From IMG/VR virus record IMGVR_UViG_3300029891_000001, positions 47,439 through 111,438 of that record: 64,000 nucleotides of DNA, one strand, 5' to 3'. Both the position numbers and the translations under genes were made by a program. The notes under the pieces are model-generated. The model was not told the origin of the DNA. It saw nothing but the letters and a program-made list of their open reading frames with translations, and ran no database searches. Each line of letters opens with the position of its first letter. The first letter of the stretch is position 1. This DNA comes from a virus. Of the stretch, positions 3,701 through 63,857 are shown in pieces.

Positions 3701-5040
3701 TTGTAATATTCCCCAGTATCTATTTTGTATAAATATTCATCATCTGCTTTAGCTTCATCTCCCAAAATAATATTTGGATTACCATAATAGTCTTTAGTAT
3801 CTAACCAATCATCTACAAAAGAATTTATATTTTCAATTTTATAATTTCCAATTATTTTATCATAATGATACCCGCTATGAATTTTCCTCTGATAAAAAGT
3901 GAATGGATCAATAAAAGAATTTGTCAATAATACTAAATAAGCTTTATATAATTCCCAACCATCAAAAGCTCTTGGTTTACTTACTCCATTAACTCTATAT
4001 TTTACTTCTGTTAAATATCCAGCTTGAATATAATCTAGCGGAGTTGGAGAAACTAAATTAATAGAGTCTTTAGTAAAAACACTATAATCTACACAAGTAA
4101 TCTGTAATATATCTTTTCCGTCTTTAGAATACTTTATATTAAAATCTCTAATTTGCCCAGTAAATCTTTTTATATATTGATATACACCAGAAGAATTTTT
4201 ATAACCTTCAGAATATTCTATCATACGATATTTTTTAATTTGCATATCATTAGAAATATTCTGAAATAGTTCGTTATTTTCATCATAAAAATATCCATTA
4301 TATGAATAAGGATCACTAGAACTAACTAATGGAACTTCAAAAGTAAATGTAGATTCATAATTAGAATTAATACTTAATTGTGTTTTTCCAATTCCCAGAA
4401 CAGTAGATAAAGAAATTGGTAAATTACCATTTCCAGGATTCCCTGTAGATAAAACTGCTGCTGAAAGAGGAATCTTTTCTGGGGTTACATTCATATCATC
4501 AGTTTGCCAAAAAGATATTATCCCTGAATTATATCCATTTAATTGTCTAGATTTATATTTTAATTCAAATGAATACCAATTACCACTAGTAAAAGCTATA
4601 CCAGAATAAGAAGAAGCATAATCAGTATCACTAAGACTAAGATATTTTTCGCTAGTTAAAAAAGATACACCATTAATCTTAAACTCTGAAACAATTCCCT
4701 CTCCCCCGAAATAGAAATCGTATTTAGAAGTATAAGGAGCTCTAAAAAATCCACTAAATTTAACTCCCCAATCTTCTACTGCATTTTCGCTAACAAAAGT
4801 ATCTGGTACACCTTCTCCATACCAGAACTTTATTATCGGGACAACTCCCTCATAAGCAGTATCAATCCAGTTTTCAGAATCTACATACCAAGTAGCATTA
4901 CATCCATTACTTAAAACATTTGTTACTGTATCTGCATATTTTACACAAACAGTCGGAGTAGGATATTTATAAAAATACGGTTGTCTTCCCTCTACTGTCG
5001 CAAAAAGGGCTTGGTCTGGTACGCTTAATCTTTCTATCAT
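799..5040 (-). CDS. Tail tip / baseplate hub-like protein with N-terminal PA14-like domain
   Basis: WGVKFSGFFRAPYTSKYDFYF...GNWYSFELKY resembles PA14. RFTGQIRDFNI...LQITCVD and GHPKIEIDDCISV...WITDITNTF resemble phage tail hub proteins. Lies downstream of tape measure and Dit-like genes. Confidence 0.65.
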   Translation of the reverse strand: MIERLSVPDQALFATVEGRQPYFYKYPTPTVCVKYADTVTNVLSNGCNATWYVDSENWIDTAYEGVVPIIKFWYGEGVPDTFVSENAVEDWGVKFSGFFRAPYTSKYDFYFGGEGIVSEFKINGVSFLTSEKYLSLSDTDYASSYSGIAFTSGNWYSFELKYKSRQLNGYNSGIISFWQTDDMNVTPEKIPLSAAVLSTGNPGNGNLPISLSTVLGIGKTQLSINSNYESTFTFEVPLVSSSDPYSYNGYFYDENNELFQNISNDMQIKKYRMIEYSEGYKNSSGVYQYIKRFTGQIRDFNIKYSKDGKDILQITCVDYSVFTKDSINLVSPTPLDYIQAGYLTEVKYRVNGVSKPRAFDGWELYKAYLVLLTNSFIDPFTFYQRKIHSGYHYDKIIGNYKIENINSFVDDWLDTKDYYGNPNIILGDEAKADDEYLYKIDTGEYYKDAIDNLMKSWYYKWGFDENAHPFLYGIDVPYSYVNDRDFDTACASGAWDKKTNIHCFVGTYNLAPAGGLCLASADVTGKKMDILFRVGPVYGSSDGTETVNISLRHNDVEFNYGDYSLYNSTTWSYYKGIDPSINLNPSVITLYGLRYDDYRLRIRTVNYNYPIALDGVIVYDEDYSHPSESFYTGDVHTSGSILDLQVGLQIDDQRSDCVVLGSRTGTKMGRGEAYQKDVVNPNNPIYQYIQSSSRDLNSVYKPTSINYIGHPRMTLIFDPSINSQEHADFVSYNVISEYNNPNKSLDFSIAGHPKIEIDDCISVNDDAKNVVNTTNYVWITDITNTFDSKNFISKISTSPVKPVNAFWKKPSPDLSEYDNHPIQNFKLYYNGAITSLSLDLSKTETNNITFRDNLSYHIPPKGYLKMINGEIIKYSSAAGWYVADLIRGIYTSHTTEAYFNELVNLAYDPYTQESMNVSPVIEFDCLVSGDIQIRIFSVKSENDSSGVKLLGSMHVDTLTGISKDGYPDWGFDKMTWGAGKRYTWGAFDQIGAYNNYVSNFDIMGGNYVVENMKLNETNSNRSLEFGKFYVEIDVISPKIDFTYRSDQPYSLAYPHEKYIYTRRGPVSEIDFWLDTAGMKRWATFTSTVTGATTYPADTARGIVIQDGVSRNLMYYNPSYIHNSANNYQGLKFWIKDNTVGSTQDGDLYRYVAPNIKYHILTYAGIVNKNNVVKYVEIYDNNDWLFANLENSYMNFKNPKSFYFNLKATRKGGNILNFVPSNILRTWIEEYGSGANNNGRLLVCPIILFSGEFVDRSGRPMAQTNKYLKRKTAFGQSIPNGQVYGTGPENHGVYEWMEGQEKKGDPNVIRLVGRWELTHSNKPDDGSLQVEMDFRKCYVHWWDEMVVGSGNIARPSLWKTKYGNVTIDYYPGNNWDWHLVGLEMEKQYGNTKTFTISNPSFPRMLFIFGGGYPS

Positions 5041-55866: not shown

Positions 55867-56118
55867 TTATAAATTGGGTTTATACAGATAATTATATAAT
55901 ACAAGAATGTCGTCAACATTAATTTTGCCATCTTTGTCTAAATCAAACTTTTCTAAATACTTTACTAAATCGTTTATCTTTACTTCGTTGTCATTGTCTG
56001 TATCAAACTGCTTAATAAAGTGTAGAATAGCAACAATATCCATCAAATTGACCACCCCATCACTATTCACATCTAAAACAGCTAGAGCTTCTTCTCGTGT
56101 AAGATTAAGTTCGGCCAT
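55867..56118 (-). CDS. EF-hand/dockerin-like Ca-binding protein
   Basis: Three loops: DVNSDGVVNLMD, DTDNDNEVKIND and DLDKDGKINVDD; AGGAGG RBS. Confidence 0.8.
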   Translation of the reverse strand: MAELNLTREEALAVLDVNSDGVVNLMDIVAILHFIKQFDTDNDNEVKINDLVKYLEKFDLDKDGKINVDDILVLYNYLYKPNL

Positions 56119-56189
56119 TTTTCCTCCTTACAATATTATTTCCCTTATATAACACAACTCTATACATATATATGTATAAATATCCTTAT

Positions 56190-56218
56190 TTTTTTTATAA
56201 AAATACCGTTTTTTATTA
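56190..56218 (+). promoter_or_regulatory. Candidate late promoter of holin-like gene
   Basis: TTTTTTTATAAAAATACCGTTTTTTATTA; near-identical to 39523-39551. Confidence 0.6.
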
Positions 56219-56243
56219 AAAATATTAATTAATAGGAGATTTT

Positions 56244-56549
56244 ATGGAAACAAGTAACTTTCAATATGTTTTTGTTTTTATCGTCGGAATAATACTAAGT
56301 CCCCTTGTTCAAATAATAAAAACTAAATTTCTTAAAAAGGGAGAGAATATAAATTATGACCCCGACCAAGTAAAATTAATTTCCATATTTCTTGCCATAG
56401 CTATATCTTTTGTAATTAATTTAATTGGTAAATATTCTCTATCTCCAATCGAAGTTATCCTCCATGCTTTTACGGTTAGCGGAACTGCTGAATTAACTTA
56501 TATTTCTTCTAATTATTATAATAAAGTTGTCACAAAAAAGCCCGATTAG
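56244..56549 (+). CDS. Holin-like membrane protein
   Basis: 101 aa, 2-3 hydrophobic segments, LVQIIKT motif, basic C-terminus, AGGAG RBS. Confidence 0.6.
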   Translation: METSNFQYVFVFIVGIILSPLVQIIKTKFLKKGENINYDPDQVKLISIFLAIAISFVINLIGKYSLSPIEVILHAFTVSGTAELTYISSNYYNKVVTKKPD

Positions 56550-56560
56550 GGTTTTTTGTG
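56531..56560. terminator. Bidirectional intrinsic terminator
   Basis: CACAAAAAAGCCC-GATTA-GGGTTTTTTGTG between convergent genes. Confidence 0.6.
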
Positions 56561-56661
56561 GAAAGTAATCTACTTCTCAAAATTTTAGAGGGACTTATAT
56601 ATCTCTTAATAATGGTGGAAAGATATACTATAGTCCCTCTTTGTGCTGTATCGCACTTATA

Positions 56662-57054
56662 TTACTTAATAAAACAGTTGACTGCAGCTGGAAGAGTATT
56701 GTCAATATTCTCTTCAGCAACATTACCAAACACACCATAGTTCATAACTTCATCAAAAGCTTTCATAGAAAGAAAATAATCTCCATCTGGATATGTACTA
56801 AAAGGAACTAATATAGAATCTAAAATACCAGCTGGTTTATTACTTGTATTCAAAATAGTAAATAAAGTTGTACATGAATTCCAATGATTTTGAAGACTGT
56901 CAGCAGAATGAGATACTTTTAAAACATATCCATTTGCTATTCCAATATTCCCATCGTCTCCAACAGTGGTATAAGTTAACCATTTATCTGAACTAGTATA
57001 ACCTACACCAAAACTAAAGACGATAAGAACGAATAAAAATAATTTCCACTTCAT
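56662..57054 (-). CDS. Secreted fibronectin type III-like protein
   Basis: Signal peptide; LTYTTVGDDGNIGIANGY...W...PAG...YFLSMKAFDEVMNY..GNV. Confidence 0.65.
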   Translation of the reverse strand: MKWKLFLFVLIVFSFGVGYTSSDKWLTYTTVGDDGNIGIANGYVLKVSHSADSLQNHWNSCTTLFTILNTSNKPAGILDSILVPFSTYPDGDYFLSMKAFDEVMNYGVFGNVAEENIDNTLPAAVNCFIK

Positions 57055-57347
57055 AAACTTTTACCTGATTTTAAAGTTAATAATAAATAACACTCTTTGT
57101 GACATAAAATTGTTTCTATGTCTAAACAATCTCTGGGCAAAACTATTAGAGTTCCCTCGCTGTTGTCTTCAAATTCTGAATGACAGACTTCACATTTGCT
57201 TCCTCTCTCTATTGGCACAAAAAAACAAGGAAATACTTTTCTAAATACATATTCGTCTTTTAATCCAACTTCTTCATACTTATACAGATCACACTGAGCC
57301 ATGTTATAATTCTTGGCATTTACTGCTTTTAATGTTTTCTTTCCCAT
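57051..57347 (-). CDS. Hypothetical Zn-binding protein
   Basis: CEVC...HKEC. Confidence 0.5.
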   Translation of the reverse strand: MGKKTLKAVNAKNYNMAQCDLYKYEEVGLKDEYVFRKVFPCFFVPIERGSKCEVCHSEFEDNSEGTLIVLPRDCLDIETILCHKECYLLLTLKSGKSL

Positions 57348-57520
57348 AGATTATTTTTCTTGTTAAAAATTTCTAAATGCACTTTTTTTATAACCTCTTC
57401 TTTTTCTTTATCATTATTTTTATATATCTCTATAGCAGTTCTTTTTTCCTCGTCTTTTAATTGATTGAACGGTTTTTCTGGAGGATAATATTCCGTTGAA
57501 TCTAAAACAAATCCTTTCAT
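57329..57520 (-). CDS. Hypothetical protein
   Basis: Coupled ORF in operon. Confidence 0.45.
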   Translation of the reverse strand: MKGFVLDSTEYYPPEKPFNQLKDEEKRTAIEIYKNNDKEKEEVIKKVHLEIFNKKNNLWERKH

Positions 57521-57521
57521 A

Positions 57522-57821
57522 TTATTCTTTCTTTAGTTTAACTAAATTAACAATGTTATCCGGCTTAACTACATTAATCTTAATCTCTTCATACCAAATT
57601 TTAACTATTCTTTCGCTAGAAATAAATTCCATATTTTCTTCATTATCTTCCATCGGCATTAAAAATCCACCATTTCCAATACTTACAACAATATTTCTAA
57701 TATCAATAGATGAAACACCTTGAGATTCATTAAAATGCATGGTATAATCAATTTCTTCTTGTTTGCCCTTAATTAATTCAATATACTTAATATGAACATT
57801 ATAATTCATAAATTCTCCCAA
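57522..57821 (-). CDS. Hypothetical protein
   Basis: ORF in operon; GGAG upstream of MNYN. Confidence 0.5.
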   Translation of the reverse strand: MGEFMNYNVHIKYIELIKGKQEEIDYTMHFNESQGVSSIDIRNIVVSIGNGGFLMPMEDNEENMEFISSERIVKIWYEEIKINVVKPDNIVNLVKLKKE

Positions 57822-57859
57822 TTTAATCGTTTATAGTTAATTCGTTAAATTCCATATAA

Positions 57860-58192
57860 TCAATCGTATTTTCTACTTATTCCATATTCTACTAAATATT
57901 TCTCATTTTTAGTAATTTTATACAAAATTAAATAAGGAAACCAATGCCAAAAACTAATAGTTACATAAAACCCATATTTTTCAATTTCATTCCCCTGTAA
58001 TAGATGTTAAAGATAATCATCTATACAAAGCCAAATACCAAAAAGAGAAACTATCGTAGTATAAATATAATATTCTGGATAAAAAAATACTAATACAAAA
58101 GAAATAATTAAAAGTATAACCCCAGTCCAAAAATGATACATTCGATACGGAGAAAACGATCTTCTATGAAATTCATATTTTCTAAAATACAT
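57860..58192 (-). pseudogene. Membrane protein gene interrupted by one in-frame TAA
   Basis: After IDDYL* (58007-58009) the same frame continues for 48 sense codons (HLLQGNEIEKYGFY...RKYD) to TGA at 57860. Confidence 0.5.
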
Positions 58193-58367
58193 TTTTATTC
58201 TCTCTTGGTCTTTTTTTCTGTGATATTATATGTTCTCTCTTTTTATGAGCCTCAAAGTCAACTGGACAACTAAATGACTGTCCACATATAAGACAAGTCC
58301 AACAAGCATATTCTGAAGGAACAATAGTCCCTTCGGGTGGAATCTTCTTATTCATAACACTAAACAT
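58182..58367 (-). CDS. C2H2 zinc-finger protein
   Basis: CLICGQSFSCPVDFEAHKKREH. Confidence 0.65.
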   Translation of the reverse strand: MFSVMNKKIPPEGTIVPSEYACWTCLICGQSFSCPVDFEAHKKREHIISQKKRPRENKNVF

Positions 58368-58443
58368 CCCAAGGATGGGGTGGAGGATAAATAATTATAA
58401 TAGGCATCGCCAATAACACGAAATACCAAAGTTTACTAAACAT
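58360..58443 (-). CDS. 27-aa membrane peptide
   Basis: AAGGAG RBS; MFSKLWYFVLLAMPIIIIYPPPHPWDV. Confidence 0.4.
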   Translation of the reverse strand: MFSKLWYFVLLAMPIIIIYPPPHPWDV

Positions 58444-58455
58444 AATTATCTCCTT

Positions 58456-58845
58456 TTAATTGACAAAAAATCTAAACAATCTTATCCCAAAGATGTTCAA
58501 TAGTAGTTTAACGTCATAAACTGTTAACGGCTGACACCCGTAAATTACGTAATCATAGCTCTTATGCTTCCACTGCTTGTCGTCAGTCTTTACTCCCCTA
58601 TCATTTACCCCAGATTGTTCTTCTCTTAAGTCTGGATCTTTATTTATAACATCTAATACTTCATCCATAGTTTTTACTTTATTTTTAGCTAATAAAAAAT
58701 GTTTAATACTATACCATTGAAAATTCTTCTTTTTCTTTTCTTTCTCTGTTAATTGAGAAAATTTAGTTTTAGTATTTGTTACATAAATATATACTTTGTG
58801 AAAGTACATATAGGCTGTTTCGTTGTCTTTCATGTTTTCATTCAT
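58456..58845 (-). CDS. Hypothetical protein
   Basis: ORF track. Confidence 0.5.
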   Translation of the reverse strand: MNENMKDNETAYMYFHKVYIYVTNTKTKFSQLTEKEKKKKNFQWYSIKHFLLAKNKVKTMDEVLDVINKDPDLREEQSGVNDRGVKTDDKQWKHKSYDYVIYGCQPLTVYDVKLLLNIFGIRLFRFFVN

Positions 58846-58908
58846 AATATTTTCTACTCTTTGACTAAATAGATTTAAAATTAATATTTAATATCATTTT
58901 TTATCCTT

Positions 58909-59022
58909 TTAACTACACGCGAATTTTCCAATAAACATTCCAACGATAAACAATACAGCGATAATAATTAAAATACCCAACCCAATTAATTTAAAATAAT
59001 CTGACATAGGATTCGTATCCAT
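58909..59022 (-). CDS. 37-aa single-TM peptide
   Basis: AGGAG RBS; MDTNPMSDYFKLIGLGILIIIAVLFIVGMFIGKFACS. Confidence 0.5.
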   Translation of the reverse strand: MDTNPMSDYFKLIGLGILIIIAVLFIVGMFIGKFACS

Positions 59023-59037
59023 ATTATCTCCTAACTT

Positions 59038-59319
59038 TTAATCTTTAAAGTCATATAGCTCCTCGCTCAAGTATTTTACGATTAATTCATAGTTTTTTCT
59101 TACTCTTCCCCACTCTTTCCCAGAGTCTATACATTTTTTTATTTCTTTATAATCCTTATCGCACTGAATACTTCTGTTTAATCCTCTAAGACCATGTGTG
59201 GAAGCCATATCTTCTACTTCGATCATGATCGCGACTTTCATCGCTCTACTGTAGAAATCTTCTTTCATCGCTATATCCTTTGCTATTAATAGAAAGATAT
59301 ATATCATTATTACATTCAC
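59038..59319 (-). CDS. Hypothetical protein
   Basis: ORF track; true start probably MKEDFY after AAGGA. Confidence 0.5.
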   Translation of the reverse strand: MNVIMIYIFLLIAKDIAMKEDFYSRAMKVAIMIEVEDMASTHGLRGLNRSIQCDKDYKEIKKCIDSGKEWGRVRKNYELIVKYLSEELYDFKD

Positions 59320-59394
59320 CTATTCTTACTGTTCTTGCTACTTATAAGCTAAACGGATTCTTTAAGTAATAACTACTTTCTCTATTAATAGAAA

Positions 59395-59515
59395 CTAGAA
59401 GATTGCTAGAAGATTGCTAGAAGATTGCTAGAAGATTGATAGAAGATTGCTAGAAGATTGCTAGAAGATTGCTAGAAGATTGCTAGAAGATTGATAGAAG
59501 ACTACTAGAAGACTT
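59395..59515. repeat. Tandem array, 11 x 11-bp (CTAGAAGATTG)
   Basis: Read directly; units 5 and 10 begin with A, giving a 55-bp higher-order period; last two units degenerate. Confidence 0.95.
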
Positions 59516-59763
59516 CTACTTCAGTAAATTGACTACTGTCAACTTATCAACTTTGATAGAAATAACTAAGAATTCGCGAAAATCCATAAAAAATCGGGAA
59601 TTATTTTTATTTTAACCAAAGAAATATTTTTTAAAAAAAAGGAATACCTTTTCAAGAAAAATTTCAGTAAAGAAAAGTTTCGAAAAAAGGTATTTACGCG
59701 TCTCTATAACTAGCGAATTCGCGCATGTATAATACTGTCTAATATACTAGTTCTCTTATTTCC

Positions 59764-59955
59764 TTATGATAAACACTCTTCATAAAAAATATAATGACAT
59801 CTTGGACAAGTAATTTTTAATCTCTCTTCGTCCTTAAGCATATATTGATAATGTTCTACGTGAAATTGATCTTCACTTTCTTGACAATCGGGATATTTCA
59901 TGAATCTTAATTTCCCGCACTTAGAACATTTTTTCGTTTCTCCATACTTTTTCAT
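59764..59955 (-). CDS. Small Zn-ribbon protein
   Basis: CSKCG...CPRC. Confidence 0.55.
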   Translation of the reverse strand: MKKYGETKKCSKCGKLRFMKYPDCQESEDQFHVEHYQYMLKDEERLKITCPRCHYIFYEECLS

Positions 59956-59987
59956 TTTCGTTCTGCCTTTCTTTTAATTCGAATTCT

Positions 59988-60035
59988 CTGTAACAGATTA
60001 ATGCTGAAGCAGATTAATGCTGTAACAGACTAATT
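59988..60035. repeat. 3 x 16-bp imperfect repeat
   Basis: CTGTAACAGATTAATG / CTGAAGCAGATTAATG / CTGTAACAGACTAATT. Confidence 0.8.
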
Positions 60036-60189
60036 AAGTTCGATATCTTCTTTTACTATTAATGCTTTCTTTTCCTTAATAGTTTTAATTTTAAAATATT
60101 TTCTAGGATTCCCGATAAAACAGAATATCTATCTCTTTCTTCGATAGGAATATCTAATTCTCTATAGAAATAGAGTCCTCGCCCGATTC

Positions 60190-60278
60190 GCTGAAGCAGA
60201 TTGCTGAAGCAGATTGCTGAAGCAGATTGCTGAAGCAGATTGCTGAAGCAGATTGCTGAAGCAGATTGCTGAAGCAGA
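60190..60278. repeat. Tandem array, ~7 x 13-bp (GCTGAAGCAGATT)
   Basis: Six perfect units plus an 11-nt partial unit. Confidence 0.95.
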
Positions 60279-60733
60279 AAAACAGATCCTCGGTTAATTT
60301 CATGAACCTATTACTGTTTCAAATCGCTATAATTAACTCTGAGTCTCAGAGTTGCTGAGTCTCAGATAACTATCTTATAATTCTAGGATTTCCTTATAAC
60401 TGTTATAAAATAATTCTTTGTATATAACTAATATATAACAATATATTTCATTTCCAGCGTCTTTGACTTAGTTTCGCGTTACTTATATATAATTCTGAAA
60501 AATTTGCATTGAAATTCTATGATTTGTATAAAACTGCTATATAATAGAATCATTTCTGACTAAAGCCAGAGCCTCAGAGGTTAGTTTGTGACACCTAATA
60601 TGTATAATGAGTAACACACTTAACATCGAAAATAGATATTAACATCTCTAAAAAAACACCCCCCCCTTTGATAAGCTATTGAATTGCAATACTTTACGAA
60701 TACTCTTGATATTAATCTTTTTTTATTTTTTAT

Positions 60734-60768
60734 TTGTTTTTTGCGTTTCTACGCCCGATATTGATAAT
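60734..60768 (+). promoter_or_regulatory. sigma70-like early promoter
   Basis: TTGCGT-N16-GATAAT (or TTGTTT-N17-GATATT) preceded by a T-rich UP-like tract. Confidence 0.45.
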
Positions 60769-60863
60769 AGAAGAAAAAATTAATTTTACACAAGCGCGAA
60801 ACTTGGGGAAAGCGCAAAATTCTTTGACGACATAACAAAAAAATTCAACGAAGGGAAATTAAT

Positions 60864-61103
60864 ATGTTTCAATTAACGATGAAACAAAAAAGAAAAATTC
60901 GAGAAGCACTCGAAGAGAAATTTTATGATAGCCCATATTATGTTAAACATTTAATGAGAAATTTATCGTATCAGATATCGATTAGGGTATCGGGTACAGA
61001 AATCATGATAATATCGAATAACGAAGAAGGGATTCTTGATTGGGTAATTCTCGATCAAGATTATTCTTCGATTGGGGATTTCATAGAGACGTTATTCCCA
61101 TAA
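60864..61103 (+). CDS. Small early protein, acidic C-terminus
   Basis: AAGGGAA RBS; first gene of the plus-strand cassette. Confidence 0.65.
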   Translation: MFQLTMKQKRKIREALEEKFYDSPYYVKHLMRNLSYQISIRVSGTEIMIISNNEEGILDWVILDQDYSSIGDFIETLFP

Positions 61104-61132
61104 AATTTTAATCTTTTAAAAGGGTTTTAAAA

Positions 61133-61861
61133 ATGTCAAATAATAACATAATCAAAAAAATCGAGAAAATCGAGAAAAAAGACTCTTTACTCGATGTTCT
61201 TGAAACTGAAAATACAGTTTCAAAAAAAACTGAAAAAACTGATAAGACTGTTGAAAAAATAGCAGTTGAAGCAGTTAAATCAGTTAAGACAAGCCCCAAA
61301 AAAGCAAAAAAAGCTAAAAAAGCTCGCAAGCTCGAAACGAAAAACGCAATAAAAAGAGAAGCGAAAAAAGCTAAAAAAGCTAAAATCGTTTTGAAACCCC
61401 AGATTGATAAGCGGGTCATCGAGAATAAGGGTAAATATTTGGGCAAACAGAAAAGCTCCCGATCTGTGATAGTTTGCAAGAAACTTTTAAGAAGTATCGA
61501 CGGGAACTTCGTGAATCTCACACAAATTCTCAAAGCCCTTAATTCAATAGGGGTTAAATGCGAGCTTGGGGATTTAAAGACTTCGAGCAAACTGGGGTGC
61601 TTTATACGCAACGCTTACTATTCTGACTATGCGGGATTACTTCATACAGGGCTTAAAAAAGAGAAAGACGGGACAGTAAGCATCTTTTGTCATAGTGACA
61701 AGTCAGACATAGTGCCCGTCGGGTATCCCACTTCATCGGGGAACGTGAGAATTACTTTCGATCCCGAAACGGGATATCGAAAAGTCAGTAAAAGAATGAA
61801 AGAAAAATTGACTAAAGATGACATCTCAGAAATGAAAGAAGTCTTTAGTCAATATATATAA
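61133..61861 (+). CDS. Early protein with Lys/Ala-rich N-terminus, paralog of 62936..63523
   Basis: KKAKKAKKA repeats; shared RVxENxGK, RNxxY..YA.L..TGL, DK..IVP.G and GY.KV.K motifs. Confidence 0.75.
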   Translation: MSNNNIIKKIEKIEKKDSLLDVLETENTVSKKTEKTDKTVEKIAVEAVKSVKTSPKKAKKAKKARKLETKNAIKREAKKAKKAKIVLKPQIDKRVIENKGKYLGKQKSSRSVIVCKKLLRSIDGNFVNLTQILKALNSIGVKCELGDLKTSSKLGCFIRNAYYSDYAGLLHTGLKKEKDGTVSIFCHSDKSDIVPVGYPTSSGNVRITFDPETGYRKVSKRMKEKLTKDDISEMKEVFSQYI

Positions 61862-61870
61862 TACTTAACA

Positions 61871-61893
61871 GGGCAGGGGTTAAACCCCTGCCC
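61871..61893 (+). terminator. Stem-loop/terminator
   Basis: GGGCAGGGGT-TAA-ACCCCTGCCC. Confidence 0.65.
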
Positions 61894-61914
61894 GATTTGA
61901 AGAAGGGAATTGTT

Positions 61915-62082
61915 ATGACAGCAATACATAAGAGTAAACTGATTAAGCTTTTGAAGTTAGCAGAGAAACATTTCAAAAGCATTGATGCGGGAATAGTAAT
62001 GAAATTAGGGGCAAGACTGGGAATCTCGAACGATGAAAGTATTAAAATCGCGAAAGAAATTCATTTCAATTATAAAAAATAA
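61915..62082 (+). CDS. Small basic early protein
   Basis: AAGGGAA RBS before ATG 61915 (MTAIHKSKL...). Confidence 0.6.
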   Translation: MTAIHKSKLIKLLKLAEKHFKSIDAGIVMKLGARLGISNDESIKIAKEIHFNYKK

Positions 62083-62090
62083 CATTTAAC

Positions 62091-62123
62091 ACAGGGAATA
62101 AATAAATTATTCCCTGTTTTTTT
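62091..62123 (+). terminator. Intrinsic terminator
   Basis: ACAGGGAATA-N7-TATTCCCTGT followed by a T tract. Confidence 0.75.
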
Positions 62124-62348
62124 ATTTAAAAATTTACGAATACCTTAGGTTTGATTCAGTTGCGATTACCCCTCCTATGGCTATAAAAATAGCAGTGGTT
62201 CTTCTTTACGAGTACCATATTAACGGTTGAAAATAGCTATGGTTAGGTTTATAATAATTAAGTACCATATTAGCGGCATGAAATAGCTGTAGTATTATAA
62301 AGAAATGGAAGTAGTGGCAGGTTAAAACAAAATAACCTAAAATAATAC

Positions 62349-62377
62349 TTGATAAACCATTGAGATTTGACGATATT
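62349..62377 (+). promoter_or_regulatory. sigma70-like promoter
   Basis: TTGATA-N17-GATATT upstream of two small ORFs. Confidence 0.4.
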
Positions 62378-62414
62378 ATACTGTGAACAAAAACTTTAAA
62401 CGAAGGGAATTATT

Positions 62415-62468
62415 ATGTGGGAAGAACGAATCATTTCTATGATTCAAAACAAAATCAGATTACCATAA
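62415..62468 (+). CDS. 17-aa peptide
   Basis: AAGGGAA RBS; MWEERIISMIQNKIRLP. Its start (ATTATGTGGGAAGA) is repeated inside the next ORF. Confidence 0.3.
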   Translation: MWEERIISMIQNKIRLP

Positions 62469-62484
62469 TTAAAAAGGGAACAAT

Positions 62485-62643
62485 ATGACTGACCAAGAAT
62501 TCTATGAATTCGAGATTATGTGGGAAGAGTTTCTTGCCACTCAAAAAAAATTAACAGACGTTGTTGTGATAGCGACTCTCCTCCTTGGAACTTTAGTTCT
62601 CTTTTCTTTTGGGATTGGGATCGTGTATTTGGTGACATTTTAA
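62485..62643 (+). CDS. 52-aa membrane-anchored early protein
   Basis: AAGGGAA RBS; MTDQEFYEFEIMWEEFLATQKKLTDVVVIATLLLGTLVLFSFGIGIVYLVTF. Confidence 0.55.
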   Translation: MTDQEFYEFEIMWEEFLATQKKLTDVVVIATLLLGTLVLFSFGIGIVYLVTF

Positions 62644-62654
62644 TTCCCTTCAAA

Positions 62655-62688
62655 AAGAGCTGCCCAGATGGACAGTTCTTATTTTTTT
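62655..62688 (+). terminator. Intrinsic terminator
   Basis: AAGAGCTGCCC-AGAT-GGACAGTTCTT (imperfect stem) followed by a T tract. Confidence 0.5.
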
Positions 62689-62738
62689 AAAATAAGTGGT
62701 TCTTATTTTTTTAAAATAAGTGGTTCTTATTTTTTTTT
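62675..62738. repeat. 24-bp direct repeat (2 full + 1 partial)
   Basis: GTTCTTATTTTTTTAAAATAAGTG. Confidence 0.85.
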
Positions 62739-62849
62739 ATGAATACCTTGGCAAATAATCTTTTCTTTAAAAGACAAACTAATCTTTGCGAAGATTAAAT
62801 ACCCTCCAAAGTTTCTCCTTGATAGCAAAAGATAAACCAAAGTTTATCC

Positions 62850-62935: not shown

Positions 62936-63523
62936 ATGAAAGCAAAAGTCGTCAAAGCCGCAAAGTCAGCTAAAAAAGCTGAGAAAGGCATAGACTTAAA
63001 AAAGTCTATGAAAAGCATAGACTTAAAAAAGTCTATGAAAGCGAAACAAGCACCGAAGATCAGTTTAATCGTCGATGCCAGAGTTAAAGAAAATGAGGGC
63101 AAGTTCGTCTTCTCCAAGAAACTCAAGAAACCTGCCCAACATGCGCTAACTATCTGTCAGGCAATTAAATCGGACGTAATAACACTTGATCATTTAATAG
63201 CTTTCTTTAAAGACAATGGGATCAAGATAGAAGCTACAGACATGTTAACTAAGAACCCCATCGGGCGAAAGGTTAGAAATATGTTTTATGGTCTCTATGC
63301 GTCATTAATCTTAACCGGATTAACTGAGAAGGGAATCTCAAAGTTCGCCACAGCCGACAAGAAATACATTGTCCCTTATGGCCCCGAATCTGCTTCCAAG
63401 AGAATCAGAATAAACTTGAGCAACGATAGCGGTTACAAGAAAGTAGCCAAGATCACTAAAGAGACGCCCACATCTGAAGCCGTTAAAGAAGCTGTCTCTT
63501 ATTCCATCAGCGAAGCTGCCTGA
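62936..63523 (+). CDS. Early protein with Lys/Ala-rich N-terminus, paralog of 61133..61861
   Basis: GAGG RBS; homologous C-terminal domain. Confidence 0.75.
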   Translation: MKAKVVKAAKSAKKAEKGIDLKKSMKSIDLKKSMKAKQAPKISLIVDARVKENEGKFVFSKKLKKPAQHALTICQAIKSDVITLDHLIAFFKDNGIKIEATDMLTKNPIGRKVRNMFYGLYASLILTGLTEKGISKFATADKKYIVPYGPESASKRIRINLSNDSGYKKVAKITKETPTSEAVKEAVSYSISEAA

Positions 63524-63581: not shown

Positions 63582-63803
63582 ATGGCTATTTACGAGCCTT
63601 TGGACTAATACAAGTTCTATTATTATAGAGGTATCAAATAGCTGTGGCTGTAAAGACTTAATAATCTCACAGATAGCTGTAGAGAATAAGTATTATATCT
63701 CTATAAATTGGGTATAAATTTGCGGCTAAGGAATATTTGAATTGCTAAATCTCTTTATTATCAGTATAGACATTATATAAAGGGGCTATAGAACAGTATA
63801 AAT

Positions 63804-63857
63804 CGACCATAGAGTTGCTATGGACGACCATAGAATTGCTATGGACGACCATAGAAT
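63804..63857. repeat. 21-bp tandem repeat with internal palindrome
   Basis: CGACCATAGA(G/A)TTGCTATGGA x2.6; each full unit has CCATAG-N5-CTATGG. Confidence 0.85.

What the first reader, a model, noticed from the sequence alone, without database searches (positions are those of the whole stretch)
60596..62142. 1.55-kb early cassette with no isolated GG or CC on either strand (HGGH/DCCD-free island)
Seen: between the CC at 60594-5 and the CC at 62143-4, I count about 42 G or C runs of length 2 or more, and every one is 3 or longer. Isolated GG/CC are abundant everywhere else in the window. The rule shapes codons: Gly is GGG or follows a G (AAG GGT, GCG GGA), Pro is CCC or follows a C, Trp is followed by G, and GCC/TCC are followed by C. 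It also shapes the RBSs (AAGGG rather than the GGAG/GAGG common in late genes) and both terminator stems. The paralogous gene at 62936 does not obey the rule, which gives an internal control; the cassette at 62400-62643 obeys it only partly. Inference: this is DNA-level selection against a degenerate 4-mer in the first-expressed and possibly first-injected DNA. One model is that the phage modifies bases in this context and the cassette must stay unmodified to be read by host RNA polymerase. The other is that a host defence targets the motif until the three encoded proteins neutralise it, by analogy to the restriction-site-poor first-step-transfer DNA of T5. I know of no described system with this specificity.
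Basis: partly seen in the sequence, partly recalled or inferred. Interest (0 to 1): 0.93.

Follow-up and report, generated by a model that had tools for sequence, protein, structure and literature searches.

The report
Phage early genes lacking isolated GG/CC
The first early gene cassette of this groundwater phage, and that of a distant relative, contains no GG or CC pair that is not part of a run of three or more, which points to strong selection against a four-base DNA context that no described enzyme is known to read.

Summary
Window 60596-62142 has 0 isolated GG/CC and 42 G/C runs of 3 or more. The next longest doublet-free gap in the 111-kb genome is 386 bp, and synonymous resampling expects about 31 doublets in the three ORFs.

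The same rule holds in the only reachable complete relative, an IMG/VR contig (103 kb, TerL 53% identical). It applies there to three consecutive early transcription units (1,422, 366 and 367 bp). These sit at the same strand switch and carry non-homologous genes. The spacers between them show the inverse pattern: doublets at about twice expectation and no runs of 3 or more.

A weaker version of the bias runs through the genes of the whole lineage (doublets obs/exp 0.80-0.93; controls about 1.0). Chance, artefact and one-off foreign DNA are therefore excluded.

Both phages carry a conserved DpdA-like transglycosylase, 7-deazaguanine precursor genes and a glycosyltransferase cluster. Contig depth doubles from about 60250 to the contig end, which hints at a long terminal repeat starting 350 bp left of the island.

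My preferred reading (confidence 0.4) is that the units stay free of the context marked by the phage's own guanine hypermodification. Avoidance of a nuclease is the main rival. The mechanism is unproven.

The parts
60596..62142 (.). Island with no isolated GG or CC on either strand: 0 doublets, 42 runs of 3 or more
60601..60608 (+). TG-TATAAT, an extended -10-like element at the left edge of the island. The last doublet (60594-5) lies 8 nt upstream of the TATAAT hexamer. This is a candidate promoter of the unit.
   Evidence: read from the sequence; inference
60659..60666 (+). C8 run, the longest G/C homopolymer in the genome. A C7 run sits at the matching place in the relative's island.
60693..60708 (+). 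Copy of the inter-cassette element TTTAYGAATACCTTRG in which the CC and the GG are lost (TTTACGAATACTCTTG)
60864..61103 (+). ORF A, 79 aa, no known family; 0 doublets (6.3 expected)
61133..61861 (+). ORF B, 242 aa: Lys-rich N-terminal half and a C-terminal domain of about 150 aa shared with the paralog. It has 0 doublets (21.6 expected). There are weak winged-helix-like hints only.
61871..61893 (+). Hairpin GGGCAGGGG / CCCCTGCCC between ORF B and ORF C, built only from runs of 3 or more
61915..62082 (+). ORF C, 55 aa, no known family; 0 doublets (3.6 expected)
62091..62124 (+). Intrinsic terminator (stem ACAGGGAATAA / TTATTCCCTGT followed by a T run) that closes the unit
62133..62148 (+). Consensus copy of the TTTACGAATACCTTAG element. 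Its CC is the first doublet after the island.
62143..62348 (.). Spacer with 15 doublets and 1 run of 3 or more (doublets O/E 1.9); it holds ATAGCTRYGG and CCATA repeats
62936..63523 (+). Paralog of ORF B (195 aa) that does not obey the rule (21 doublets); the internal control
60164..60293 (.). 13-bp tandem array (GCTGAAGCAGATT, 8 register-shifted copies). The Logan contig on its left has depth 56 and the one on its right 105, so this is a candidate left boundary of a long terminal repeat.
60464..60533 (+). Two canonical sigma-70-like promoters, TTGACT-17-TATATA and TTGCAT-17-TATAAA, reading towards the island from outside it
   Evidence: read from the sequence; not listed by the consensus scan

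Best explanation
The island is one complete pre-early transcription unit with its flanking control sites. Purifying selection has kept it free of the 4-bp context HGGH/DCCD, meaning a GG:CC step that is not part of a longer run.

I think the most likely reason is that this context is where the phage's own post-replicative DNA hypermodification is placed. The candidate machinery is a divergent DpdA-like guanine transglycosylase, with GTP cyclohydrolase I, a QueE-like radical-SAM enzyme, a GT4 glycosyltransferase and a PIG-L deacetylase. Units that host RNA polymerase and regulators must use the moment the virion DNA enters are kept unmarked.

The rest of the genome tolerates the mark, with a mild cost that shows up as a lineage-wide deficit of doublets within genes. 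The spacers between the early units are loaded with the context.

Shown here: the rule, its statistics, its conservation, its match to transcription units, and the presence of the modification genes. Inferred: that the motif is the modification context, that the mark hinders transcription or protein binding, and that this DNA enters first.
For: 1. The rule is absolute and acts at the DNA level. GG and CC are both absent, in coding and non-coding sequence and in all frames.

2. A 103-kb relative (TerL 53% identical, 55 of 150 ORFs shared) has 0 doublets in three successive early units of 1,422, 366 and 367 bp at the same strand switch. The two islands share only short regulatory elements, and the one pair of island proteins I compared, ORF B and the relative's 170-aa Lys-rich protein, shows no homology.

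3. In the relative, the free zones run from the promoter region to just past the terminator. For unit 1 they also cover flanking TTGTGAAWTTTTTCACAA palindromes outside the ORFs. In unit 3 a CC is tolerated in the promoter spacer, directly after the -35 hexamer. A cut there would destroy that promoter; a mark might not.

4. The spacers are enriched in the context. In the relative's first three spacers, doublets are at O/E 1.9-2.5 and there are 0 runs of 3 or more against about 10 expected. This is hard to reconcile with sites being pure liabilities.

5. Within genes, the lineage has doublets at obs/exp 0.80-0.93 and runs of 3 or more at 1.18-1.25. Controls give 0.98-1.00 for doublets and about 1.0 for runs.

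6. The DpdA-like protein is among the better conserved proteins between the two phages (59% identical). It has weak TGT-superfamily matches: Pfam 25.6 bits, PHROG 9.5e-6, ArcTGT 1iq8 E 0.001. FolE, a radical-SAM enzyme, GT4 and PIG-L lie beside it.

7. Known phage DpdA enzymes have short sequence contexts, GA and GGC (PMC7544227, PMC10484667). A 4-bp context is therefore plausible for this family.
Against: - No modification data exist for this phage. It is known only from a groundwater metagenome.
- The TGT assignment is weak: the Pfam score is just below the gathering cut-off.
- No known DpdA reads HGGH, and no 7-deazaguanine derivative is known to block RNA polymerase. T4-type hypermodified DNA is transcribed by host polymerase.
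- The replication genes carry normal numbers of doublets, yet they must also be expressed from parental DNA.
- The lineage-wide deficit is uneven. AGGH, CGGA, ACCT, ACCG and GCCT are at 0.68-0.85, while TGGH and TCCD are at about 1.0. It is therefore not simply a diluted copy of the island rule, and part of it may be avoidance of Shine-Dalgarno-like sequences.
- The link between the modification genes and the islands rests on two related genomes.
- The richness of the spacers in doublets may simply reflect iterons such as CCTGTCCATA.
Confidence: 0.4

Rival explanations
1. Nuclease avoidance, as in the T5 first-step-transfer region. A host defence nuclease, or the phage's own host-DNA-degrading nuclease or nickase, cuts at isolated GG:CC steps. 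The first-entering, first-expressed units are site-free, so they survive and are expressed before the rest of the genome is protected or enters.
For: - Motif avoidance is the classic signature of restriction pressure.
- There is a lineage-wide deficit of doublets within genes.
- The island lies about 350 bp inside a segment with doubled contig depth. This fits a long terminal repeat like that of T5, whose repeat holds the first-step-transfer DNA.
[quoted passage not shown] Davison proposed that first-step DNA lacks the sites of the A1 host-DNA nuclease (10.1101/866236). How T5 DNA escapes A1 is still open (10.64898/2026.04.02.716235).
- Frequent-cutting viral nickases whose site has a 'not C' flank exist: Nt.CviPII, ^CCD (PMC3017599).
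- Each free unit has its own promoter and terminator, so it would survive cuts in the spacers.
Against: - The spacers between the free units, and the 346 bp to the left of the island, carry normal or doubled numbers of sites. First-entering DNA would therefore still be cut.
- In the relative's unit 3, a site sits inside the promoter.
- No A1 or A2 relative and no nuclease is encoded in the island.
- No enzyme with HGGH specificity is known. A CCD-type site would still occur at the end of every CCC run.
- T5's own first-step DNA shows no such depletion.
Confidence: 0.3
2. A protein roadblock rather than a covalent mark. A host or phage DNA-binding protein, for example a packaged or early coating protein, binds isolated GG:CC steps or the spacer iterons that contain them. 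The early units are kept free of binding sites so that they stay open for transcription.
For: - The spacers are dense arrays of short CC-containing iterons, such as CCTGTCCATA and CCATA repeats.
- ORF B, its paralog and the relative's 170-aa protein each have a Lys-rich N-terminal part. For ORF B there are also weak winged-helix-like structural hints.
Against: - A protein that tells GG from GGG in every flanking context would be unusual.
- The structure prediction for ORF B is poor (pLDDT 47).
- No binding data exist.
Confidence: 0.12
3. An RNA-level constraint. The early mRNAs must lack isolated GG and CC, for example to escape an endoribonuclease.
For: The free zones coincide roughly with transcription units, running from near the -10 element to the terminator.
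Against: - Both GG and CC are avoided, which is the signature of double-stranded recognition. On one RNA strand, two unrelated motifs would be needed.
- In the relative, about 136 bp upstream of the first promoter and about 142 bp downstream of the terminator are also free, and these stretches carry the palindromic sites.
- No RNase with this specificity is known to me.
Confidence: 0.05
4. No selection on the motif here. The island is foreign DNA from a genome with a different signature, a product of mutational bias, a chance event, or an assembly or sequencing artefact.
For: - The island has unusual CpG (57 observed, 21.5 expected) and TCGA (17 observed, 1.9 expected).
- The genome comes from a metagenome.
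Against: - The high CpG and high GC3 are shared by the whole terminal early region, including the paralog.
- Much of the CpG excess follows from the NCG-GGN codon trick.
- The island uses the phage's own ribosome-binding site and inter-cassette element.
- The reading frames are intact.
- An independent assembly gives the identical sequence.
- The same rule appears in a second genome from another sample, with different genes.
- A mutational bias cannot give 0 of 86 runs in the four free units while neighbouring DNA has normal or raised doublet counts.
Confidence: 0.03

Closest known systems
First-step-transfer (pre-early) DNA of phage T5 and its EcoRI-site-free state
   Same: A short block of the first-expressed genes, lying in a terminal repeat (only suggested here by doubled contig depth), lacks sites that are common elsewhere in the genome. 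Repeats lie next to it. The idea that first-entering DNA lacks the sites of a nuclease has been proposed for T5 (10.1101/866236).
   Different: - The motif here is a degenerate 4-bp, run-length-defined context, not a 6-bp palindrome.
- T5's first-step DNA has 531 isolated doublets in 10.2 kb.
- There are no A1, A2 or dmp-type genes in the island.
- Two-step entry is untested.
- Sites are abundant in the spacers between the free units.
Genome-wide restriction-site avoidance in phages
   Same: A short DNA word is under-represented compared with codon-preserving shuffles, and the deficit is shared by a lineage.
   Different: - The depletion is absolute but local, and it follows transcription units.
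- It distinguishes GG from GGG.
- It is paired with enrichment in neighbouring spacers.
- No cognate enzyme is known.
Motif-specific 7-deazaguanine DNA modification by phage DpdA (CAjan: GA and GGC; iggy: GA)
   Same: Both phages carry a TGT-superfamily gene beside FolE and a radical-SAM enzyme. Known DpdA enzymes act in contexts of 2-3 nt (PMC7544227, PMC10484667).
   Different: - The similarity to TGT is weak.
- I did not look for QueC.
- No modification has been measured.
- No known DpdA context depends on run length, and no modification-free early island has been described for DpdA phages in the papers I found.
Chlorovirus frequent nicking and modification pair Nt.CviPII / M.CviPII (^CCD)
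   Same: A virus-encoded enzyme reads a CC step with a 'not C' flank (PMC3017599). In function this is the nearest known specificity to DCCD.
   Different: CCD has one flank only, so it still occurs at the 3' end of every CCC run, and the island is full of those. No homolog was sought or found here.
Leading-end organisation of T7 (strong host promoters followed by the anti-restriction gene 0.3)
   Same: Tandem canonical host-type promoters near a probable genome end read into the first small genes. The comparison rests on my own knowledge of T7.
   Different: There is no homology, no evidence of transcription-driven entry, and no comparable motif rule in T7 that I know of.

Membership tests
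T5-like first-step-transfer region | Lies in a long direct terminal repeat | tested here: inconclusive
   Logan contig depth is 52-56 to the left of 60220, 105 for 60249-62704 and 125 for 62707 to the contig end. The tool warns that contig depth is not a copy number. The right boundary was not seen. The assembly itself has only a 165-bp end overlap with one mismatch.
T5-like first-step-transfer region | Encodes A1 (metallophosphatase-like) and A2 (DNA-binding) transfer proteins | tested here: not met
   ORFs A, B and C match no Pfam or PHROG family and have no homologs beyond the paralog family.
T5-like first-step-transfer region | Two-step DNA entry with an injection stop signal | not testable with these tools
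   This needs infection experiments, and there is no cultured host. Repeat-rich DNA follows the island, but this is only a resemblance.
Restriction- or modification-motif avoidance | The motif is significantly rarer than in composition- and codon-preserving nulls | tested here: met
   0 observed against about 31 (codon resampling) and 51.8 (k-mer expectation) in the island. For the lineage, genes show obs/exp 0.80-0.93 against 0.98-1.00 in controls.
Restriction- or modification-motif avoidance | A cognate enzyme with that specificity is known in the host or the phage | not testable with these tools
   The host is unknown (groundwater metagenome). No described enzyme reads HGGH. The nearest are ^CCD and the DpdA contexts GA and GGC.
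Phage DpdA / 7-deazaguanine DNA modification system | A TGT-superfamily DNA transglycosylase | tested here: inconclusive
   Pfam TGT 25.6 bits (cut-off 26.3), E 7.8e-6. PHROG queuine tRNA-ribosyltransferase, E 9.5e-6. PDB ArcTGT 1iq8, E 0.001, over the zinc-site region only.
Phage DpdA / 7-deazaguanine DNA modification system | preQ0-pathway genes (FolE, QueD, QueE, QueC) | tested here: inconclusive
FolE is clear (E 8e-53). A radical-SAM enzyme consistent with QueE was found (E 5.7e-11). I did not confirm QueD or QueC.
Phage DpdA / 7-deazaguanine DNA modification system | Modified guanine present in virion DNA | not testable with these tools
   Only short-read contigs of one public run were available.

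The most novel reading that the evidence does not exclude
A so far unknown DNA-reading activity, either a new DpdA-type hypermodification specificity or a new nuclease, distinguishes an isolated GG:CC step from a longer G:C run. This phage lineage has written its early region in a two-letter run-length code around that activity. The pre-early expression units contain only runs of 3 or more and are invisible to the activity. The spacers between them contain only doublets and are saturated with targets. This would be a sequence-encoded way to set which DNA is usable at the moment of entry. It would also be a natural example of the 'site-free first DNA' idea that is still unresolved for T5.
Probability: 0.35. 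Interest if true: 0.92.

Novelty: new variant of a known kind. Interest (0 to 1): 0.86.

Why it matters
Local motif avoidance in first-expressed phage DNA is a known idea. This case is much more extreme and more specific. Every one of about 50 expected occurrences of a degenerate 4-mer is removed from a whole transcription unit. This is done by recoding Gly, Pro, Trp, Ser and Ala contexts, hairpins and even a conserved regulatory element, and it is seen in two phages whose island genes are unrelated.

The pattern predicts an enzyme specificity that reads run length, which has not been described. It also gives a direct handle for finding it:

- two natural 'recoded' cassettes;
- an internal paralog control;
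- spacers with the inverse rule;
- a conserved candidate modification cluster.

If the activity is the phage's own modification, the pattern reveals a new DpdA-family context and a way for a hypermodified genome to keep its first genes readable. If it is a nuclease, it gives sequence-level support for the long-standing proposal of how first-entering phage DNA escapes degradation. A sliding count of doublets against longer runs is also a cheap new screen for phage genomes.

Tried and rejected
**Homology and relatives**
- Close DNA relatives in INPHARED: none.
- Relatives of ORF B or the paralog: none in IMG/VR or JGI metagenome contigs.
- Among 5.8 and 1.84 billion proteins, the only family members are ORF B itself, the paralog and a 133-aa fragment on a 640-bp ENA contig.
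The long contigs of closer TerL relatives (33-131 kb) could therefore not be fetched.
- TerL against GTDB genomes gave only prophages at about 30% identity.
- The DpdA-like protein in IMG/VR gave only the one relative plus a hit at 33% identity.
- Promoter-pattern scans of IMG/VR found no further relatives.

**Function of the island proteins**
- Pfam and PHROGs: nothing for the island proteins of either phage.
- Rfam and tRNA scans: nothing relevant.
- The AlphaFold model of ORF B was too poor to search with (pLDDT 47). The ESM Atlas gave only weak winged-helix-like structural neighbours.

**Reads**
- No RNA holder was listed, and only contigs (no raw reads) were available. Termini and expression could not be read.

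**Ideas considered and dropped**
- Evasion of an NGG or CC protospacer-adjacent motif, CCA phosphorothioation and CCD nicking. All of these motifs still occur inside the runs of 3 or more.
- G-quadruplex selection. This does not explain the missing doublets, and in my reading of the run positions the runs are too far apart.
- A homopolymer sequencing artefact. The frames are intact and a second assembly is identical.
- Strand-specific 'half-islands'. Examples are genome 2167-2664 (2 GG against 16 CC) and the relative's units 4 and 5 (0 CC against 11 GG). By gap length they are within what chance allows, so I report them only as noticed.
Full report
**Setting**

The window is the last 64 kb of a 111,438-bp phage genome. 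The genome was assembled from a groundwater metagenome. Its ends overlap by 165 bp with one mismatch.

It is an AT-rich siphovirus-like genome. It encodes a tape-measure protein, terminase, portal, major head protein, ribonucleotide reductase, DnaB, DnaG, a clamp loader, RecU and ThyX. The closest terminase in isolated phages is only 30% identical.

Genes run rightward from 1 to 42.9 kb, leftward from 43.3 to 107.7 kb, and rightward again from 108.3 kb to the end. The finding sits exactly at this last strand switch. It is the first unit of the rightward genes, which continue across the contig junction into the small early genes at the genome start.

**The observation**

It is exact.
- From 60596 to 62142 there are 42 G or C runs of length 2 or more, and every one is 3 or longer.
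- The genome has 3,696 isolated doublets, about one per 30 bp. The longest doublet-free stretch is 1,549 bp and the next is 386 bp.
- Resampling synonymous codons by genome usage expects 6.3, 21.6 and 3.6 doublets in the three ORFs. All three have none. The 12 runs in the four non-coding stretches are also all 3 or longer.
- No trinucleotide is missing. All nine strand-symmetrised HGGH tetranucleotides are missing, with a summed expectation of 51.8. The avoided word therefore needs both flanks.
- GG and CC are each absent on their own (28 G runs and 14 C runs), which is what recognition of double-stranded DNA predicts.
- In 1.03 Mb of IMG/VR loci fetched through a promoter pattern, the 115 unrelated loci never exceed 266 bp, or 11.5 times their mean spacing. 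The island is about 51 times.
- An independent Logan assembly of the public run reproduces 60249-62704 without a single difference and bridges both edges.

**Internal controls**

- ORF B (242 aa) and the gene at 62936 are paralogs (31% identity, E 1e-22). The paralog has 21 doublets.
- At aligned conserved residues, the island copy uses GGG, or a preceding codon that ends in G, or CCC, where the paralog has GGC, GGA, GGT, CCT, GCC, ACC or TCC.
- A 16-nt element reads TTTAYGAATACCTTRG in exact copies at 62133 and 62736, each just after a cassette. Related TTACGAATACC copies occur near 63590 and in the genome start. Inside the island it reads TTTACGAATACTCTTG. The rule therefore overrides a conserved regulatory word.
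- The island's excess of CpG, CGGG/CCCG and TCGA is largely a by-product of the NCG-GGN solution. High CpG and high GC3 are shared by the whole terminal early region, including the paralog. The island is therefore compositionally native.
- The AAGGG ribosome-binding site is used by early genes outside the island too, so it is not a consequence of the rule.

**The relative**

The island proteins have no homologs. The terminase, however, has a family of metagenomic relatives.

The only complete one I could fetch is an IMG/VR contig of 103,045 bp. Its TerL is 53% identical, and 55 of 150 ORFs are shared and syntenic. It shows the same phenomenon at the same place.
- At its strand switch there are 0 doublets and 35 runs of 3 or more over 1,422 bp.
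- Two more units follow, of 366 and 367 bp, also with 0 doublets.
- A fourth unit has 3 doublets, and after that the density is normal.

The ORF B family has no match anywhere in that record, and the relative's Lys-rich 170-aa island protein shows no homology to it. At the DNA level the two early regions share only short control elements: the extended -10 TTGTCGATATTAT and the TTACGAATACCTT element.

The relative's island also holds a 'cleaned' copy of that element (TTACGAATGC). It has a C7 run where this phage has a C8 run. In each genome this is the longest G/C homopolymer.

Each free zone runs from the promoter region to just past a terminator. For unit 1 it also covers flanking palindromes (TTGTGAAWTTTTTCACAA) on both sides. 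In unit 3 the last doublet lies in the promoter spacer, directly after the -35 hexamer. In the window, the last doublet lies 8 nt upstream of a TG-TATAAT element.

**The spacers and the lineage-wide bias**

Between the free units the rule is inverted.
- The relative's first three spacers hold 68 doublets in 549 bp (O/E 1.9-2.5). They have no run of 3 or more, where about 10 are expected.
- In the window, the first spacer has 15 doublets and one longer run.

A weaker bias runs through the whole lineage. In genes of 150 aa or more, compared with synonymous-codon shuffles:

| Genome or set | Doublets obs/exp | Runs of 3 or more obs/exp |
|---|---|---|
| This genome | 0.88 | 1.20 |
| The complete relative | 0.93 | 1.21 |
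| Fragment of a closer relative (TerL 67%) | 0.80 | 1.25 |
| Fragment of a closer relative (TerL 61%) | 0.81 | 1.18 |
| T5 (first 50 kb) | 0.98 | 1.01 |
| 125 genes from 17 low-GC unrelated loci | 1.00 | 0.99 |

The deficit is uneven among tetranucleotides. It is strong for AGGH, CGGA, ACCT, ACCG and GCCT, and absent for TGGH and TCCD. It is therefore related to the island rule but not identical to it.

**What this excludes**

Chance, sequencing or assembly artefact, a single foreign insertion and simple mutational bias cannot give 0 of 86 runs in four units of two genomes while neighbouring DNA has normal or raised counts. I put the probability of continuing DNA-level selection against isolated GG:CC steps in the pre-early units at about 0.9.

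**Position relative to the genome end**

Logan contig depth is as follows:

| Window coordinates | Depth |
|---|---|
| 56000-59416 | 52 |
| 59464-60219 | 56 |
| 60249-62704 | 105 |
| 62707 to beyond the window end | 125 |

A two-fold step at the 13-bp tandem array (60164-60293) is what a collapsed long terminal repeat would give. It would put the island about 350 bp inside the repeat's left boundary.

This is a hint only. Each contig gives one mean value, the tool warns against reading it as a copy number, and I could not see the right boundary. The 346 bp between the step and the island carry 10 doublets.

**Mechanism**

Both phages carry a conserved cluster:
- a DpdA-like TGT-superfamily protein, 59% identical between them, with weak family matches;
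- FolE;
- a QueE-like radical-SAM enzyme;
- a GT4 glycosyltransferase;
- a PIG-L deacetylase and an FkbM methyltransferase.

Known phage DpdA enzymes insert 7-deazaguanines at short contexts, GA and GGC (PMC7544227, PMC10484667).

My preferred reading (0.4) is that isolated GG is the context of this lineage's guanine hypermodification, and that the units needed at entry are kept unmarked. This reading fits four observations:
- the match to transcription units plus their control sites;
- the tolerated CC in a promoter spacer;
- the site-rich spacers;
- the mild deficit within genes.

Against it, no modification has been measured, no known deazaguanine blocks RNA polymerase, and the replication genes are not depleted.

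The main rival (0.3) is avoidance of a nuclease, as in T5.
- There, sites in the first-step DNA are cleaved while later DNA is protected.
- It has been proposed that first-step DNA lacks the sites of the A1 nuclease (10.1101/866236).
- How T5 DNA escapes A1 remains open (10.64898/2026.04.02.716235).
- The nearest known specificity is the chlorovirus nickase Nt.CviPII, ^CCD (PMC3017599). That site, however, still occurs at the end of every CCC run.

The site-rich spacers and the sites left of the island argue against a simple version of this model. T5's own first-step DNA has 531 doublets in 10.2 kb.

A protein roadblock (0.12) and an RNA-level constraint (0.05) are weaker rivals.

**Novelty**

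I found no description of a run-length-defined avoidance, nor of a modification-free early island in DpdA phages. The scan's own notes hold no similar case.

I file it as a new variant of a known kind, namely motif avoidance in first-expressed phage DNA. There is a real chance that it reports a new enzyme specificity.

Noticed in passing
window 59395-59500, 59988-60034, 60164-60293, 62675-62746, 63804-63845; L001 222-296: There is a dense set of tandem arrays around the strand switch and the contig junction: 11-mer x about 10, 16-mer x3, 13-mer x8, 24-mer x3, 21-mer x2-3 and 15-mer x5. Together with the depth step, they may mark termini, an origin or an injection-stop-like region.
   Followed up: partly
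window 60659-60666; L020 1251-1257: A C8 run here and a C7 run in the relative are the longest G/C homopolymers of their genomes. Both lie near the left end of the island, each preceded by an A-rich stretch and followed by a T-rich one. Their function is unknown.
   Followed up: partly
L001 1088-1117, 2100-2129, about 3891-3930; window 62349-62378; L020 1325, 1518, 2778, 3370, 3883, 4405: The two phages share an early promoter class, TTGAnnn-N13-G(T/A)CGATATTATA. In the relative, the promoters of units 1 and 2 lack the CC that follows TTGACAA in most other copies (TTGACAAACC). In the window, the island does not use this class at all.
   Followed up: partly
L020 1225-1480 and 2480-2600: The palindrome TTGTGAAWTTTTTCACAA occurs at least eight times on both sides of the relative's first unit. 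It looks like an operator array.
   Followed up: no
whole genome and relatives: Across the lineage, genes have fewer isolated GG/CC and more runs of 3 or more than synonymous shuffles predict, and controls show no such bias. There are also many G5-G6 and C5-C6 runs for a genome of 30% GC, by my own rough expectation.
   Followed up: yes
L001 2167-2664; G001 83964-84191, 84465-84722, 87352-87909: Some first genes behind early promoters show a one-strand version of the bias: 2 GG against 16 CC here, and 0-1 CC against 3-17 GG in the relative. By gap length this is not beyond chance.
   Followed up: partly
window 60596-62142: TCGA occurs 17 times (1.9 expected from the rest of the genome, where it is about two-fold depleted). 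The sites I read are mostly NTC-GAN codon pairs. CpG O/E is above 1 across the whole terminal early region, against a genome median of 0.58.
   Followed up: partly
L003 886-1428; L003 5-883; L003 1447-1902: The genome encodes an HD-domain 5'-deoxynucleotidase-like protein (the activity annotated for T5 Dmp, though not in the island), a PD-(D/E)XK nuclease and RecU.
   Followed up: no
TerL relatives P0025-P0027 and P0055: Several relatives have a terminase large subunit of 665-889 aa that carries intein or homing-endonuclease domains (PF14528, PF14890, and in one case PF07591).
   Followed up: no
P0002 (640-bp ENA contig): A 133-aa fragment is 83% identical to the paralog at 62936. The paralog's lineage therefore exists in another data set, but no flanking DNA could be obtained.
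   Followed up: partly
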